64,000 bases of DNA from Trypanosoma brucei (GCA_000002445.1 AE017150.2:576001-640000); one strand, 5' to 3'; numbered from the stretch's first letter, positions 19,601-43,440 are shown. The notes: generated by a model from the letters alone, not told the origin. Made by a program: numbers and translations.

Positions 19601-20130
19601 GATGCCCAAAGAATAGTTTAACCTTTGGATTGGGTGCTTTTCTGTTGACACAGGCAACTTATAAGATAAGATGGTTTTTATATCTGTGGAGGACATCTCT
19701 TTCCAGTTACCGCGGGAGCGACACTTCAACTCACTGACAGGTTACACCCCAATTCACTCACCGACGATGAGAAAAGCCGCAGCGCTGCGAACCTATGCCT
19801 TCATTTTCAAACTCACACCTTACTGCTGTGGCCCCAACTAGCGCTTTACTCCCTAATGAGATAAGACAGGTAATTCTGCATTATTTCCCATTATATGATC
19901 GGCACTAAGCACTCAGTTTTTTTCCTTGTCCTTTCTTTCGTCTTTCGAATGTGAGGACATTTTTCAGTTTCTTTTCTTCCTGCGGTAATACCTTACCTAT
20001 ATTTTTTAAAATAAAGAATTGACACAATAGAGTAAATATTTTCGCTTGAAGAAACCGTTGTTGATTTTCTCTTCCAGTCGTAAATTCAGCTGATCGTTTG
20101 AAGCATCCACCTCTCACACTGTACGTCATC

Positions 20131-20508
20131 ATGGCTGGCGTGCTTCATGAAACTGCCACAACCGTATCATACAGGGGAGCGCTATGCAAATTAGCAGGTG
20201 TTGAGCTACAAGGGATTAATTTATCACCACCTCAAAGGTTGTGTCAGTTGGAGTTGCTGATCAGTCGTGAGATCAACTGGCTGGCAGCAGTCCTCGAGGA
20301 ATGGGAAGAAAAATATATGCTCTTCACATGTGTGCCGTACCGTGGTGTTGTCGACGCGTTTACAACCCTGCTCAGGACAATTAAGCGGCACCTGGAGACA
20401 GAGAACAGTTCAAAGGACAATGAAAAGGAGTGGGATGCGTTGCTGGCTTCTAGCATTACTGAATTTCAGGTGGAGGTTATGGAAATCGGAAAGGGTAAGA
20501 GTTACTAG
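20131..20508 (+). CDS. array-associated 125-aa hypothetical protein, copy 1
   Basis: ATG-initiated ORF MAGVLHETATTVSYRGALCKLAGVELQGINLSPPQRLCQLELL…; conserved in all six units. Track start 20098 is TTG. Confidence 0.5.
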   Translation: MAGVLHETATTVSYRGALCKLAGVELQGINLSPPQRLCQLELLISREINWLAAVLEEWEEKYMLFTCVPYRGVVDAFTTLLRTIKRHLETENSSKDNEKEWDALLASSITEFQVEVMEIGKGKSY

Positions 20509-22049
20509 CATTTTTTTCTTTTCTTTCTACCTGTACATTTAACTTTTTTTCCTCTTTTTTTTACGGTGGTATATGTTCTTTTTTTGTCACCCAATGGTTA
20601 AATTACCATGCGGTGACAAAACAAAGACTCGGTTTTTAAACTCATTGAAAGTAATAGAGTACGCGTACCTAAAAAAAAGTGTATGCGGAGTGGATTATGT
20701 ATTCTCATGAAATCAATCATTCAAATATCTAATGCAAAGCGCAAACAACTGTACGACGGAAATTTTTTTAATTTTTGCGGTGCCTCTATAAATAACTCCT
20801 TCACTAACCGTTATTGCTCGACGTAGCATCACTAGGTAAACCTTTACGCGTTCGTCTGCTTTGAATGCACTAGTTCATACAGCTCCCTAAAGTCTAACTC
20901 CGTCTCAACTCTTTCCCCACTCTTACACATTGAATAGTCTTTGGCAAAATACAAACCTTTGGGAGTCACACCTCCACAAGAAATTAGTTATAGCTAGCCT
21001 TCCCCCACTGCCCAGATTATGCATCCTTATCAATTGCCTCGGCTGATAACTTAAATTGACAGCGTAATTGAACTATCCGTCTCTGTTATGAGTCCCTGAT
21101 GGCAGTACTCGTGGTTTCCATAGGAGGGGGAACGATCCGTCCGAATAATCCAAATTTGAGGGGTTAAAGGGTAGTAAAATACATTACTTTCATCAGATGA
21201 AGAACACACGAAATGACTTAAGGGTGCGAGAGTGGCATTCTGAACCTGTAAAATGTGTACCTTGCCTGCTTCTTCATGCCATGAAATGTAAATATATCCC
21301 AAACATTCAAGTCTGCTTTGTCGATATATTTGTCACAGAAGTGTAGTAGGTTACATGGTCTGTGTGAACTGGGGATCGAAAGCTCTCAGGTGGCAATGCT
21401 TGGCGGTGTAATGTATGCATGGCCGCAGTGTTGAATACCATTCCTTATATCTACTCGATGAGTTCAGTTTTGGCGAGTTAGCCTATGATTATCTCCTCGA
21501 TGTTTTATCTCGGGGTTTAGTAGAGGTGGACACATATAAAGTTATGGGGGCGGCTGTTACCTGTGGGAGTCCTATTATAAAGTGGTAAGTACTGTGCCTC
21601 TTTTATGGGTGCTGTCAGACAAGCATTTTGTTTTGTGTGGAGACGAACTTTCCTCCATTTGCTTTGGAGGGACGATTTAAGTCACTGCTGGTTTCTGTTG
21701 TGCAATAGAAACGCGAGAGGCAAAGTGTGTCTGTTGAAGTGTGATTATTCTTTTTGGGGCGTCTTCATTACCGGGATGTTGGGAATGCTGATTACTGCTG
21801 TTTCCACTGTAGTGAGGCGAATAAACAGCTGCAAGTGTGTTTCGGATCCCTTTAGTTTTTAGTAAATCCTTTTCCGAATATGTGAATACCAAGCATACAC
21901 ATACGCAATAATTTCCAAGCTAATATTTGTAACTCTGGATATTTCACAACTTGGGTATGTATGTAGCATTGTAAATTGCTTTGCTTCTTTTGCAAAATAA
22001 TTTGTGGAAGAGTTCTTGATAAGACTGAAAGGTGGAATAATATAAAAAA

Positions 22050-41079: not shown

Positions 41080-41199
41080 ACTCACCTTCACTCTTATACA
41101 AATGTGCAGGTTTTTTTTTAAACAGCGAGTGTAAATAAAAAAAAAATAATAATGACAGTGAATTGAAAACAGCTGCATAGATCCGTGAGACAGGGAAGA

Positions 41200-43440
41200 A
41201 GTGCCGGCGACCTTTGCTTTTCTTTTTCCTTTTTTTCACTACTTTTATGGCCGTCCGTAAGGCGGTCTATAGAAAGGTAACGCCTTTCTGCGGAACGGTT
41301 TCCCACGCCGTAGTTGTTGTTTCCACCTTGCTCATCGTAAATGAGTGTTTCTACCGGAACTAACTGTCATGTAAACTATAAGCTTCTTCACCTCTTGCTA
41401 AACTAGGAGTTTCATGTTGCGACAATAAGCACATCCCTTGACGCACTCAGTGTTCTTTCCATACGGAAGTTGCCTGTGGTTTTCAATCTTTGAGAGGTAT
41501 TACCTTGTTTGTGGAATGTGGACCGGAGGGCGGTGGCGGAGACTGGTACCGGAAGGCCATTTGGCACTGTGTCTACCTGGTGGCGTCGTAGGGGGCACCG
41601 GGTAACGAGGCGAGGGCGCGATGTGGAGTCGCCTTTTGGGTCATGGGGTTTTTGTTTTACCGGGAGACATGGCTCCTTTTTTCGTCCGCCTCCACCTGGA
41701 CTCTTACTTCACGCTCTGCTTTCGCTTCCCATGTAACGCAAAGGCGCGGGGGCATTATGTACGATGCCGCAGGGGGCGGGTTGCTGGGCACATTCGTGTT
41801 CACATGACTGGCGCAGTTCCGTTAAGCTTAGAACGACCAACGCGGCTGGCATCTTCTCAAAAGAGCGTGGCGTTGGGGCGCTCCCCCGAATTTGCTCGGG
41901 AAGGTAATGCAGTACAATTTCTTCATCGTGACGAGGCGGGTTGTCTTCGGTCTCTTTGCTGGCTCACCGATGTGGGCGTACAGTCTCGTCCTTCCCGAGA
42001 AGTTTTTCGTGCAGCACTGACCTCTCTGGACAGGGAAATTTTACCACTCGTCAGAGCGCCGAAATGTAATGCCGTCGAAACTTCAGGAAGCCAAATCGTT
42101 ACTACTCCTTGAGGGTAAGGCGGTGAGACCTCTCCCCTCTGTTTTATTGGCTGTGGTTGCGTTTCCTCCACCACTGTTGGCGGCTTTTTTTTCCACTGCA
42201 TCTGTGAGCCCATTTTTTCCCCTTAGCTCCTTCGGGGCGCCATGCTGCAGCTGGCGGTCGACAATTTCTGGCAACCAATCTCTAATCTTCTTTGGAAACG
42301 ATTGTTGTGTAGCCCGCTAAAACCCTTCAGCGCGCTCTGTTAGCATCGCATCTACAGCTAAACATAACTCCTCTTTACAACTTTCGGTTCCAGCGCACGG
42401 AAGGTTAATTGCTTTTTCTGACATTTGGGAGCCGCACCGTGCATTTGTCTTCTCAGGCCTCTGAGGTTTTCGAGACGCAAAGCTGTTCCTCACCCCGGAG
42501 ATATCACAACCACTGATGCGGGGATGGATCCCCCATGAGCACTGCTTTGAAGCTTGTCGAGGTCCGTTTTCCTTTTTCTTTTCGGACGGGTGCCTGAATT
42601 CCTGCATGTGGTTCCTAAAGTTGGGGAAGCGCTTATTGGCGCTGTGTGCCAGCGGTCATGTGTAGTTTGCGCATTCATTCGTCCCGTGAGCGAGCCCCAA
42701 CGTAGCGGTGGGATCGTTGCAACAGAAGAGGAAGAGAAAGAGAGGTTGAAAGTCTATTCTAAGGCGGATATTGTTCCGGGTCTTTTCCCAAGAGCGTAAC
42801 CCTCTGGACACGCATTGTGTACGATTGGTCTTTGGACGCGAAAGGGTACGTTCAGCAAGGCCGCTCATACGGAACGCCCAACCAAAACGTTCCTGTTTCC
42901 GTCAAACCATTATGGAAAAGAAATTGCCAGTAGTTTGAAAGCATTTAACCAATGCAACACTTCTCACTCTTTTTCTTGAGTCCCCGTCTTTTGGCGATAT
43001 CTCCAATCTTACGCGGTGGTTACACTCGCACTTCCCCCTTTAATCCTTCAACCACACTGATTTTTCCTCTAATAATTATTAAGCACTACCTTAGCATAAG
43101 CAAGACCATCCGCTACCAGGGGTAAATGTGTCCTTGGCGACTTTTTCCCTACCCGCAGCATCCCCCCTTTTTTGTTTCAAAACCGACCCAAATCTATTTA
43201 AGGTAACGGAACAGCGTCAGTATACGCGCATGTATATATGCCCCTTTTTAAAAATCCATTCCTTCTGCCGCTGACCGAACAACACAAGGGTAGGGGACCG
43301 GAAAAGAAAGAAAACCAAACCCTCCAGAGACAGTGGGGGCCTCTTTAACAGGGCAAGGCCGCTGTTTACCGCAATAAAATCCTCGAAACAAATTTTCCAC
43401 GGAGAAGCTGCTTTGCCGCCTTGTGTCAGAAATGGCGGTG
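41200..43440. terminator. convergent strand-switch region between the plus- and minus-strand polycistronic units (putative RNA pol II termination zone)
   Basis: The last plus-strand gene ends at 41079 and the first minus-strand gene ends (its 3' end) at 43489. Between them lies a GC-rich segment unlike the AT-rich intergenic DNA elsewhere, with no convincing coding ORF. No tRNA signature (GTTCGAATCC-type T-arm) was found by eye. Confidence 0.5.

What the first reader, a model, noticed from the sequence alone, without database searches (positions are those of the whole stretch)
19984..41200. 21-kb tandem array alternating an ISG65-like surface receptor gene with a co-amplified 125-aa gene
Six units of 3541-3546 bp are head-to-tail on the transcribed strand. 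Each unit encodes a 125-aa ORF and a 436/437-aa type I membrane protein. That protein's signal peptide, length and cytoplasmic tail (KRRRNSSKDVDTGKAEGGVSSVKVVM) match what I recall of T. brucei invariant surface glycoprotein ISG65. ISG65 is a bloodstream-stage surface protein and is reported to act as a complement C3 receptor. Copy number and the strict alternation with a second gene make this the main accessory-type locus in the window. The 125-aa partner has no described function that I can attach.
Basis: partly seen in the sequence, partly recalled or inferred. Interest (0 to 1): 0.6.

Follow-up and report, generated by a model that had tools for sequence, protein, structure and literature searches.

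The report
Known trypanosome ISG65 receptor gene array
This is the already published tandem array of six ISG65 complement-C3-receptor genes on chromosome 2 of Trypanosoma brucei TREU927, and the small 125-aa gene between the copies has also been reported (as MSTRG.94), so the finding is correct but not new.

Summary
Six head-to-tail units of 3541-3546 bp occupy about 19984-41205 on the + strand. Each holds a 125-aa ORF followed by a 436/437-aa ORF. The large ORFs are ISG65: Pfam PF11727 at E 2e-99, and E about 1e-226 to solved ISG65 structures. In order, they are identical over the 399 residues printed to the published Tb927.2.3270-3320 of T. brucei TREU927.

The array is already described in Macleod 2022, including its 3550-bp BamHI unit, variable copy number and mosaic ectodomains. 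The 125-aa ORF is also published. Tinti 2022 named it MSTRG.94_1-6 and reported peptides, spliced-leader and poly(A) sites, ribosome footprints and bloodstream-form bias. Macleod 2022 instead treats such ORFs as ISG65 3'UTR.

My tests lean towards a real coding gene. Its codon usage matches genuine genes, it is the least variable part of the unit, and AG acceptors with no upstream ATG precede it. The evidence is not decisive: 3 of 17 copies are frameshifted, pN/pS is not frame-specific, and it has no homologue outside the T. brucei subspecies found here. No function can be assigned; the fold prediction is a low-confidence helical bundle.

Verdict: real, correctly read, already known, low interest. 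One caveat is that the published whole-array knockout probably also removed this gene.

The parts
19984..41205 (+). Whole tandem array: six units of 3541-3546 bp, each ORF125 - 1.54-kb spacer - ISG65 - about 314-nt post-stop segment
   Evidence: Searches give the spacing. One search gives the edges. One search gives per-segment identities.
20131..20508 (+). 125-aa ORF copy 1 (MSTRG.94-type; variant MAGV/Q39/E41/F65, 14.17 kDa). It is not downstream of any ISG65 copy.
   Evidence: PMC8240603
22050..23360 (+). ISG65 copy 1 = 927A / Tb927.2.3270 (436 aa). It is a mosaic: the backbone of copies 2-5 with the N-terminal and L2 blocks of the copy-6 type.
22488..22640 (+). Variable block of ISG65 copy 1, residues about 147-197. 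It lies largely in loop L2, the second C3b (CUB-domain) contact. H189 and Y190 are kept in all six copies, while residue 188 is K, V or D.
   Evidence: Cook 2024 PMC11042801
23675..24052 (+). 125-aa ORF copy 2 (variant MAGV/H39/G41/L65)
   Evidence: Codon score is +0.149 per codon.
23603..23633 (+). Pyrimidine-rich tract TTGTTGATTTTCTCTTCC followed by AG at 23620/21 and by the invariant TTCAG at 23632/33. This is the candidate trans-splice acceptor for the ORF125 mRNA, with no ATG before 23675.
   Evidence: sequence only; the splice site was not verified here
25523..25554 (+). Pyrimidine tract CTTTGCTTCTTTT with its first AG at 25553. This is the candidate ISG65 trans-splice acceptor, 39 nt before the ATG.
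   Evidence: sequence only
25594..26904 (+). ISG65 copy 2 = 927B / Tb927.2.3280 (436 aa)
27219..27596 (+). 125-aa ORF copy 3 (variant MASM/H39/G41/L65)
29140..30450 (+). ISG65 copy 3 = 927C / Tb927.2.3290 (436 aa)
30763..31140 (+). 125-aa ORF copy 4 (same protein as copy 1)
32681..33991 (+). ISG65 copy 4 = 927D / Tb927.2.3300 (436 aa)
34304..34681 (+). 125-aa ORF copy 5 (same protein as copy 1)
36224..37534 (+). ISG65 copy 5 = 927E / Tb927.2.3310 (436 aa; N66I, K418Q)
37848..38225 (+). 125-aa ORF copy 6 (same protein as copy 3)
39766..41079 (+). ISG65 copy 6 = 927F / Tb927.2.3320 (437 aa). This is the divergent subtype: the 5' half of the CDS is 76% and the 3' half 88% identical to copies 2-5. 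The ORF125 and spacer upstream of it are 98-100% identical. No ORF125 follows it.

Best explanation
The region is the ISG65 locus of Trypanosoma brucei brucei TREU927 chromosome 2 (Tb927.2.3270-3320).

Shown here or in print:
- The six large ORFs encode ISG65, a bloodstream-stage type I surface receptor.
- ISG65 binds complement C3, C3b and C3d through a helical-bundle face (the TED interface) and through loop L2 (the CUB interface). It slows complement-dependent clearance.

Inferred from established trypanosome biology:
- Genes sit in RNA polymerase II polycistrons with no individual promoters, so output is raised by gene dosage. Tandem amplification of a 3.5-kb unit is how the parasite reaches the published figure of about 70,000 receptors per cell.
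- Unequal crossing-over and gene conversion keep the non-ISG65 part of the unit at 98-100% identity.
- Two ectodomain blocks, residues about 16-31 and 147-197 (the latter largely loop L2), persist as alternative cassettes. Recombination shuffles them: copy 1 is a mosaic carrying the copy-6-type blocks. The C3b-contacting H189 and Y190 stay invariant.

The 125-aa ORF:
- It lies inside the amplified unit, 314 nt after each ISG65 stop and 1.54 kb before the next start, and is copied along with it.
- Most likely it is a separate small gene, the published MSTRG.94.
- Each unit would yield a second mRNA, trans-spliced at an AG 41-54 nt upstream of the ORF's first AUG.
- This mRNA would be translated into an acidic 14-kDa soluble protein, probably helical, found so far only in T. 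brucei-group trypanosomes.
- I infer that its co-amplification is a passive result of its position, not evidence of partnership with ISG65. I also infer that it is a young lineage-specific gene, dispensable in culture.
For: ISG65 identity:
- PF11727 at E 2e-99 and 6e-101.
- PDB 7pi6_A, 7zgj_C and 8ovb_C at E 8.5e-226 to 8.8e-181.
- Exact match over 399 aa, in order, to 927A-F of Macleod 2022 supplementary data 1.
- Signal-like N-terminus and a single TM segment.

Array already described:
- Tandem on chromosome 2, a 3550-bp BamHI unit, isolate-variable copy number and mosaic N-terminal domains (PMC9424271).
- BamHI sites in the window are spaced 3544-3546 bp.

Homogenisation versus diversity:
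- Across units of three genomes, mean pairwise diversity is 1.5% for ORF125, 3.4% for the spacer and 4.3% for the post-stop segment. It is 10.3% for the ISG65 CDS, reaching 14-24% in the ectodomain's 5' half.
- Unit 6 has a 98-100% identical ORF125 and spacer but a 76% identical ISG65 5' half.
- H189 and Y190 are invariant. They form the C3b CUB contact (PMC11042801).

ORF125 as a gene:
- Published MS peptides, SL and poly(A) mapping, ribo-seq and bloodstream-form bias; 378 bp, 125 aa, 14.17 kDa (PMC8240603). The mass is reproduced for the variant in units 1, 4 and 5.
- Codon-usage score is +0.149 per codon in frame, against -0.23 and -0.37 off frame. Eleven real genes in the window score 0.10-0.25. 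Fifteen spurious antisense ORFs score -0.07 to +0.09.
- It has fewer variable columns than the flanks: 4.2 per 100 against 9.9 and 13.4.
- AG acceptors follow a pyrimidine tract, and no upstream ATG occurs in any of the six units.
- Copy 1 lies upstream of the first ISG65, so it cannot be ISG65 3'UTR.
- There is no excess RNA folding that could explain the conservation (z = +1.27).
Against: - Macleod 2022, Supplementary Fig. [quoted passage not shown] An expert group therefore regards the ORF as UTR.
- Three of 17 full-length copies in TREU927, DAL972 and OVI are frameshifted. Sequencing error cannot be excluded.
- pN/pS is 0.37 in frame (p = 0.046). The two control frames give 0.44 and 0.84, so protein-level selection is not demonstrated.
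- There is no homologue outside T. brucei subspecies among 1.84 billion representative proteins or 5.8 billion clusters.
- DAL972 annotators labelled it 'hypothetical protein, unlikely'.
- The AlphaFold single-sequence model is poor (pLDDT 55.5) and has no significant fold match.
- I could not see the raw SL, poly(A) or peptide data. The extended-data table is not held.
Confidence: 0.8

Rival explanations
1. The 125-aa ORF is not a gene. It is a chance reading frame inside the long 3'UTR of ISG65 mRNA, or within inter-CDS spacer. Its conservation reflects concerted evolution of the array or RNA-level regulatory function.
For: - Macleod 2022 supplementary legend.
- The label 'hypothetical protein, unlikely' in DAL972.
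- Frameshifts in 3 of 17 copies.
- pN/pS is not frame-specific.
- It is an orphan with no family, fold or domain.
- The same unit carries antisense ORFs of 106-153 aa that are certainly spurious, so a 125-codon frame is not statistically remarkable.
Against: - Peptides, ribosome footprints and SL sites are published for it.
- A downstream ORF in an ISG65 mRNA would not be reached by scanning ribosomes.
- Its codon usage is like real genes and unlike all 15 spurious ORFs tested.
- It is the least variable segment of the unit.
- Copy 1 has no ISG65 upstream, and ISG65 copy 6 has no ORF downstream.
- There is no RNA-structure signal.
Confidence: 0.2
2. The 125-aa protein is a dedicated functional partner of ISG65, for example a cytosolic adaptor for its sorting, ubiquitylation or turnover. 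On this view the strict 1:1 alternation is selected to keep their stoichiometry.
For: - A strict 1:1 alternation is conserved in TREU927, DAL972 and OVI.
- Both genes are bloodstream-form biased.
- ORF125 is the most conserved part of the unit.
Against: - The 1:1 ratio follows automatically from the ORF lying inside the duplicated unit.
- mRNA and protein levels in trypanosomes are set post-transcriptionally, so equal copy number does not imply equal amounts.
- There is no sequence relation to ISG65 (hhalign probability 0.2%) and no recognisable interaction domain.
- Tinti's tblastn at TriTrypDB found matches only in Tb427 and T. evansi.
Confidence: 0.07
3. The six-copy array is an assembly artefact: collapsed or expanded repeats in the reference.
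For: Repeats of 3.5 kb at 98-100% identity are hard to assemble from short or Sanger reads. Copy number is known to differ between isolates.
Against: - All units are mutually distinguishable.
- ISG65 copies 1, 2, 5 and 6 have unique protein sequences.
- The array is independently mapped on cosmids with a 3550-bp BamHI ladder. It is also seen in the Lister 427 assembly, for which the supplementary list shows 427A-I and the alignment also labels 427J and 427K.
- The right flank is collinear in OVI.
Confidence: 0.03

Closest known systems
T. brucei ISG65 gene array, chromosome 2 (Tb927.2.3270-Tb927.2.3320; Macleod et al. 2022 Nat Commun, PMC9424271)
   Same: It is the same locus. There are six genes in the same order, with identical protein sequences over the 399 residues printed. 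The unit length is about 3.55 kb with a BamHI site per unit in five of the six units, and the N-terminal and L2 blocks are mosaic.
   Different: Nothing of substance. In this window one unit (unit 4) lacks the BamHI site.
MSTRG.94_1-6, 'new protein-coding gene' of Tinti et al. 2022 (Wellcome Open Res 6:36, PMC8240603)
   Same: A 378-bp ORF of 125 aa and 14.17 kDa, in six copies lying between ISG65 genes on TREU927 chromosome 2. It has no TM segment or signal peptide.
   Different: The paper calls the six regions identical, but the window encodes three protein variants. The paper says the Tbg972 regions are unannotated, but the NCBI DAL972 record lists them as 'hypothetical protein, unlikely'.
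Other trypanosome tandem surface-protein and transporter arrays (ISG75 and ISG64 on chromosome 5, adenosine transporter genes) used for gene dosage
   Same: They share head-to-tail amplification inside a polycistron, bloodstream-stage mRNA up-regulation, and concerted evolution of spacers. This last point is from general knowledge.
   Different: Those loci are not in this window and were not examined. Whether they carry a comparable embedded small ORF was not tested.

Membership tests
ISG65 (Pfam PF11727 ISG65-75; T. brucei 65-kDa invariant surface glycoprotein) | ISG65-75 ectodomain profile match | tested here: met
   E 2e-99 and 6.2e-101, covering profile positions 17-281 of 281
ISG65 (Pfam PF11727 ISG65-75; T. 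brucei 65-kDa invariant surface glycoprotein) | Near-identity to experimentally characterised ISG65 proteins | tested here: met
   PDB 7pi6_A E 8.5e-226, 7zgj_C E 2.4e-222, 8ovb_C E 8.8e-181. All six copies match Tb927.2.3270-3320 exactly over 399 aa.
ISG65 (Pfam PF11727 ISG65-75; T. brucei 65-kDa invariant surface glycoprotein) | Type I topology: N-terminal signal sequence, one TM helix, short lysine-containing cytoplasmic tail | tested here: met
   Kyte-Doolittle 19-residue windows of at least 1.6 occur only at window starts 1-6 and 382-396. The tail is KRRRNSS(K/Q)DVDTGKAEGGVSSVKVVM. This was a hydropathy calculation only; no dedicated predictor was run.
ISG65 (Pfam PF11727 ISG65-75; T. brucei 65-kDa invariant surface glycoprotein) | C3b-contacting loop-L2 residues N188/H189/Y190 (Cook 2024) | tested here: inconclusive
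   H and Y are invariant in all six copies. Residue 188 is K (copy 1), V (copies 2-5) or D (copy 6) instead of N. The effect on binding is not testable here.
ISG65 (Pfam PF11727 ISG65-75; T. brucei 65-kDa invariant surface glycoprotein) | Bloodstream-stage surface expression and C3 binding | not testable with these tools
   Literature only: PMC9424271, PMC10140031, PMC11042801. Microarray BF up-regulation of Tb927.2.3270/3300/3320 is in PMC2771046.
MSTRG.94 (Tinti et al. 2022) | 378-bp, 125-aa, 14.17-kDa ORF in six copies between the ISG65 genes of TREU927 chromosome 2 | tested here: met
   Six ORFs of 378 bp. The unit 1/4/5 variant has a mass of 14.17 kDa. Their positions alternate with Tb927.2.3270-3320.
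MSTRG.94 (Tinti et al. 2022) | Own spliced-leader and poly(A) sites, ribosome footprints and MS peptides | not testable with these tools
   Reported in PMC8240603; the extended data are not held. The sequence is compatible: a pyrimidine tract plus AG 41-54 nt upstream, with no uATG.
Bona fide protein-coding gene (generic test for the 125-aa ORF) | Frame-specific purifying selection and intact frame in all copies | tested here: inconclusive
   pN/pS is 0.37 in frame against 0.44 and 0.84 in the control frames. Three of 17 copies are frameshifted. However, the codon score is gene-like and diversity is the lowest in the unit.

The most novel reading that the evidence does not exclude
The 125-aa ORF (MSTRG.94) is a functional, recently born gene specific to the T. 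brucei group, whose product acts with or alongside ISG65 in the bloodstream form. Published whole-array deletions probably removed it together with ISG65, so part of the complement-clearance phenotype attributed to ISG65 could be due to it.
Probability: 0.08. Interest if true: 0.5.

Novelty: already known. Interest (0 to 1): 0.12.

Why it matters
ISG65 is a validated immune-evasion receptor, so its locus matters, but its structure and function are in print. Two residual points have practical value.

First, two published views of the embedded 125-aa ORF conflict: ISG65 3'UTR versus an independent translated gene. The sequence tests here lean towards a gene.

Second, the ORF sits inside the repeat unit, so any 'ISG65 locus' deletion also removes most or all of its copies. 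I found no mention of an add-back in the main text of the 2022 knockout paper. An ISG65-only add-back or an ORF-only knockout would therefore be needed to assign the phenotype cleanly. Neither point changes the low novelty.

Tried and rejected
- Pfam and PDB sequence searches of the 125-aa protein found nothing. The best PDB E-value was 0.55, to unrelated proteins.
- The word-indexed search of 5.8 billion clusters and the exhaustive phmmer search of 1.84 billion representatives found only T. b. equiperdum and T. b. gambiense copies.
- AlphaFold2 on the single sequence gave pLDDT 55.5, with three long helices plus one short one. Foldseek against the PDB gave no hit at E <= 0.001, only generic helical bundles (FAT domains, designed bundles), which I treat as uninformative.
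- hhalign of ORF125 against ISG65 tested whether the ORF is a decayed ISG65 fragment. The probability was 0.2%, so this was rejected.
- RNA folding of the ORF region tested a structured-RNA explanation for its conservation. The z-score was +1.27, so this was rejected.
- Exact-sequence look-ups of the window's own ORF125 and of ISG65 copy 6 found no record in the contig collection.
- The ISG65 homologue search returned only T. brucei-group proteins, so ISG loci of T. congolense or T. vivax could not be inspected for an unannotated ORF125.
- Searches for guessed gene IDs (Tb927.2.3275 and similar, Tb427_020014000) found no papers.
- Extended-data Table 7 of Tinti et al., which holds the SL and poly(A) coordinates, is not held.
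- There are no tRNA genes and no Rfam families anywhere in the window.
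Full report
**Observation.** The window carries six ORFs of 436/437 aa on the + strand, at 22050, 25594, 29140, 32681, 36224 and 39766. They are spaced 3541-3546 bp apart. Six ATG-initiated ORFs of 125 aa lie at 20131, 23675, 27219, 30763, 34304 and 37848. Repeat families of 300 nt recur six times at 96-100% identity with the same spacing.

Base-by-base comparison puts the left edge of homology at about 19982-19984, which is 147 nt upstream of the first 125-aa ATG. 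Strong homology on the right ends at 41139, 60 nt after the last ISG65 stop, and weak similarity fades by about 41205. The array is therefore six whole units in the phase ORF125 - spacer - ISG65.

**Identity of the large gene.** The 436/437-aa proteins match Pfam PF11727 (ISG65-75) at E 2e-99 and 6e-101. They match three solved ISG65 ectodomains, 7PI6, 7ZGJ and 8OVB, at E 8.5e-226 to 8.8e-181.

Supplementary data 1 of Macleod et al. 2022 (PMC9424271) lists the TREU927 ISG65 proteins 927A-F, which are Tb927.2.3270 to Tb927.2.3320. The six window ORFs are identical to these, in the same order, over all 399 residues printed. The window is therefore T. brucei brucei TREU927 chromosome 2.

Copies 5 and 6 have K418Q in that tail.

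[quoted passage not shown] Each gene lies in a 3550-bp BamHI fragment. Variation is confined to blocks of the ectodomain, and recombination has produced mosaic N-terminal domains. In the window, BamHI sites fall at 21844, 25388, 28934, 36018 and 39562; only unit 4 lacks one.

ISG65 is a receptor for complement C3, C3b and C3d, and its deletion speeds clearance in mice (PMC9424271). Structural work adds three points:
- a second C3b contact made by loop L2 residues N188/H189/Y190;
- covalent conjugate formation with C3b;
- occlusion of the CR2 and CR3 binding sites (PMC11042801).

**Anatomy of variation.** Aligning the six proteins shows two cassette-like blocks, at residues about 16-31 and about 147-197, the latter lying largely within loop L2. 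Copies 1 and 6 share one form, and copies 2-5 share the other. Outside these blocks copy 1 is otherwise like copies 2-5, whereas copy 6 differs throughout the ectodomain. H189 and Y190 are invariant, while position 188 is K, V or D.

At the DNA level, unit 6 has an ORF125 and spacer that are 98-100% identical to the other units. Its ISG65 5' half is only 76% identical and its 3' half 88%.

I compared thirteen units from TREU927, T. b. gambiense DAL972 and T. b. equiperdum OVI. Mean pairwise diversity was:

| Segment | Mean pairwise diversity |
|---|---|
| ORF125 | 1.5% |
| Spacer | 3.4% |
| Post-stop segment | 4.3% |
| ISG65 CDS | 10.3% (14-24% in the ectodomain's 5' half) |

The pattern fits concerted evolution of the unit, with ectodomain diversity retained or imported by recombination. 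That agrees with the published description and is not new.

**The 125-aa ORF: literature.** Tinti et al. 2022 (PMC8240603) describe exactly this ORF as 'MSTRG.94_1 to _6'. They report a 378-bp, 125-aa, 14.17-kDa product in six copies between the ISG65 genes at Tb927_02_v5.1:592500..617500. Their evidence comprises mass-spectrometry peptides, spliced-leader and poly(A) mapping, ribosome-profiling coverage and preferential bloodstream-form expression. Their tblastn found matches only in Tb427 and T. evansi.

By contrast, the legend of Supplementary Fig. [quoted passage not shown] The existence of the ORF is thus published, while its status is disputed. No function has been proposed, and no later paper on it was found.

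**The 125-aa ORF: evidence favouring a real gene.**
- A codon-usage log-likelihood trained on 11 other genes of the window gives +0.149 per codon in frame, against -0.23 and -0.37 out of frame. Real genes score 0.10-0.25, and 15 spurious antisense ORFs score -0.07 to +0.09.
- It is the least variable segment of the unit.
- A pyrimidine-rich tract followed by AG lies 41-54 nt upstream of the ATG in all six units, with no intervening ATG.
- Copy 1 is not downstream of any ISG65, and ISG65 copy 6 has no ORF after it. The ORF is therefore not simply '3'UTR' by position.
- The RNA shows no excess folding that might otherwise explain its conservation (z = +1.27).
- A downstream ORF in an ISG65 mRNA would not normally be translated, so published peptides and ribosome footprints imply a separate capped mRNA. 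This last point is an inference.

**The 125-aa ORF: evidence against, or neutral.**
- Three of 17 full-length copies in three genomes are frameshifted.
- pN/pS is 0.37 (p = 0.046), but the control frames give 0.44 and 0.84.
- There is no homologue beyond T. brucei subspecies in exhaustive searches.
- It has no Pfam or PDB relative and no relation to ISG65.
- The single-sequence AlphaFold model is a low-confidence helical bundle (pLDDT 55.5) with no significant structural neighbour.
- The predicted protein is acidic (pI 5.1-5.4), with no hydrophobic segment.

I put about 0.7-0.75 on it being an independently expressed, translated, young lineage-specific gene. I put about 0.2 on it being untranslated or incidental UTR sequence.

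**Why it alternates with ISG65.** The array's edges fall 147 nt upstream of ORF125 and about 60-125 nt downstream of the ISG65 stop. The right flank is collinear in T. b. equiperdum. The ancestral single unit therefore already contained ORF125 upstream of ISG65. The strict 1:1 alternation is the automatic result of duplicating that unit, and it is not in itself evidence for a functional partnership.

**A practical caveat.** Macleod et al. deleted the whole array with guides on either side of it. I found no mention of an add-back in the main text. The 125-aa genes lie inside the array, so they were presumably deleted too, although I could not verify the exact guide positions. If so, two inferences follow. 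The ORF is dispensable for growth in culture. The in-vivo phenotype is formally that of ISG65 plus ORF125.

**Surroundings.** Upstream on the + strand lie a ClpB/HSP104-like C-terminal fragment, a fatty-acid desaturase, a NAF1/Gar1-domain protein, a PPR protein and a Got1/Sft2-like protein. A 3.5-kb ORF-poor stretch then precedes the array. Downstream, GC skew flips at about 42 kb, and genes resume on the - strand from 47.7 kb. These are a galactosyltransferase-like protein, two proteins without domains, two tandem CHAP-domain proteins and a PWWP/TFIIS-like protein. The array therefore ends a polycistron at a convergent strand-switch region. No tRNA or Rfam family is present.

**Verdict.** Both the array and the embedded small gene are already published, so novelty is 'already known' and interest is low. 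The only open thread is the status and function of MSTRG.94/ORF125.

Noticed in passing
window 20131-38225 (six 125-aa ORFs): Tinti et al. 2022 call the six MSTRG.94 regions identical, but the window encodes three protein variants. These are MAGV/Q39/E41/F65 in units 1, 4 and 5; MAGV/H39/G41/L65 in unit 2; and MASM/H39/G41/L65 in units 3 and 6. The ORF variant does not track the type of the adjacent ISG65.
   Followed up: yes
window 24055-24132: The strongest polypyrimidine tracts of the whole repeat unit sit immediately after the ORF125 stop codon, and the first AG after them is at 24169. This could be an additional trans-splice or polyadenylation-directing site. If so, either the ORF125 3'UTR is very short, or the ISG65 5'UTR is long, or an ncRNA is made from the 1.4 kb that follows. 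Unexplained.
   Followed up: partly
window 23620-23633 and equivalents: The first AG after the pyrimidine tract upstream of ORF125 is CCAG in units 1, 2 and 6. It is mutated to CCAT in units 3, 4 and 5. An invariant TTCAG lies 12 nt further on, 41 nt before the ATG.
   Followed up: partly
window 41621-42112 (+): This 163-aa ORF just past the array is called as a gene in the T. b. equiperdum assembly. It has no Pfam match, and its codon score (0.041) falls within the range of the spurious antisense ORFs. It is probably not a real gene.
   Followed up: partly
window about 42000-47600: This is a convergent strand-switch region. GC skew changes sign, + strand genes end at the array, and - strand genes start at 47669-48802. 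It contains A-rich low-complexity stretches at 46450-47220, with no tRNA and no Rfam hit.
   Followed up: partly
window 55650-56471 and 57649-58491 (-): Two adjacent paralogous genes encode CHAP-domain proteins of 273 and 280 aa (Pfam PF05257, E about 1e-13). This is a small tandem duplication unrelated to the ISG65 array.
   Followed up: no
window 32475 (expected position): Unit 4 lacks the BamHI site that the other five units carry. A BamHI digest of TREU927 would therefore give one fragment of about 7.1 kb besides the ladder of about 3.55 kb.
   Followed up: yes
window 37483-37485 and 41028-41030 (codon 418 of ISG65 copy 5, codon 419 of copy 6): There is a K418Q substitution in the cytoplasmic tail of ISG65 copies 5 and 6 (NSSQDVD instead of NSSKDVD). 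It removes one of the tail lysines. From general knowledge, these lysines are implicated in ubiquitin-dependent turnover of ISG65.
   Followed up: no
L001/L003 (T. b. gambiense DAL972 FN554965.1 317547-348035); L002/L004 (T. b. equiperdum CM010673.1): The DAL972 stretch examined holds at least ten ISG65 gene calls. It includes one ISG65 split into 119-aa and 286-aa pieces, lying immediately downstream of the frameshifted 121-aa ORF125 copy, so that unit looks decayed or mis-sequenced. The NCBI record annotates the small ORFs as 'hypothetical protein, unlikely', although Tinti et al. state that the Tbg972 regions are unannotated. The OVI array is shorter, with 4 ORF125 copies of which 2 are frameshifted.
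   Followed up: partly
window 8940-9066: An (ATAAAT)n microsatellite of 21.5 copies lies in the AT-rich intergenic region upstream of the NAF1-like gene.
   Followed up: no
window 16448-19983: A 3.5-kb stretch lies between the Got1/Sft2-like gene and the array with no + strand ORF above 78 aa. It has strong G>C and T>A skew. It is presumably a long UTR or intergenic spacer.
   Followed up: no
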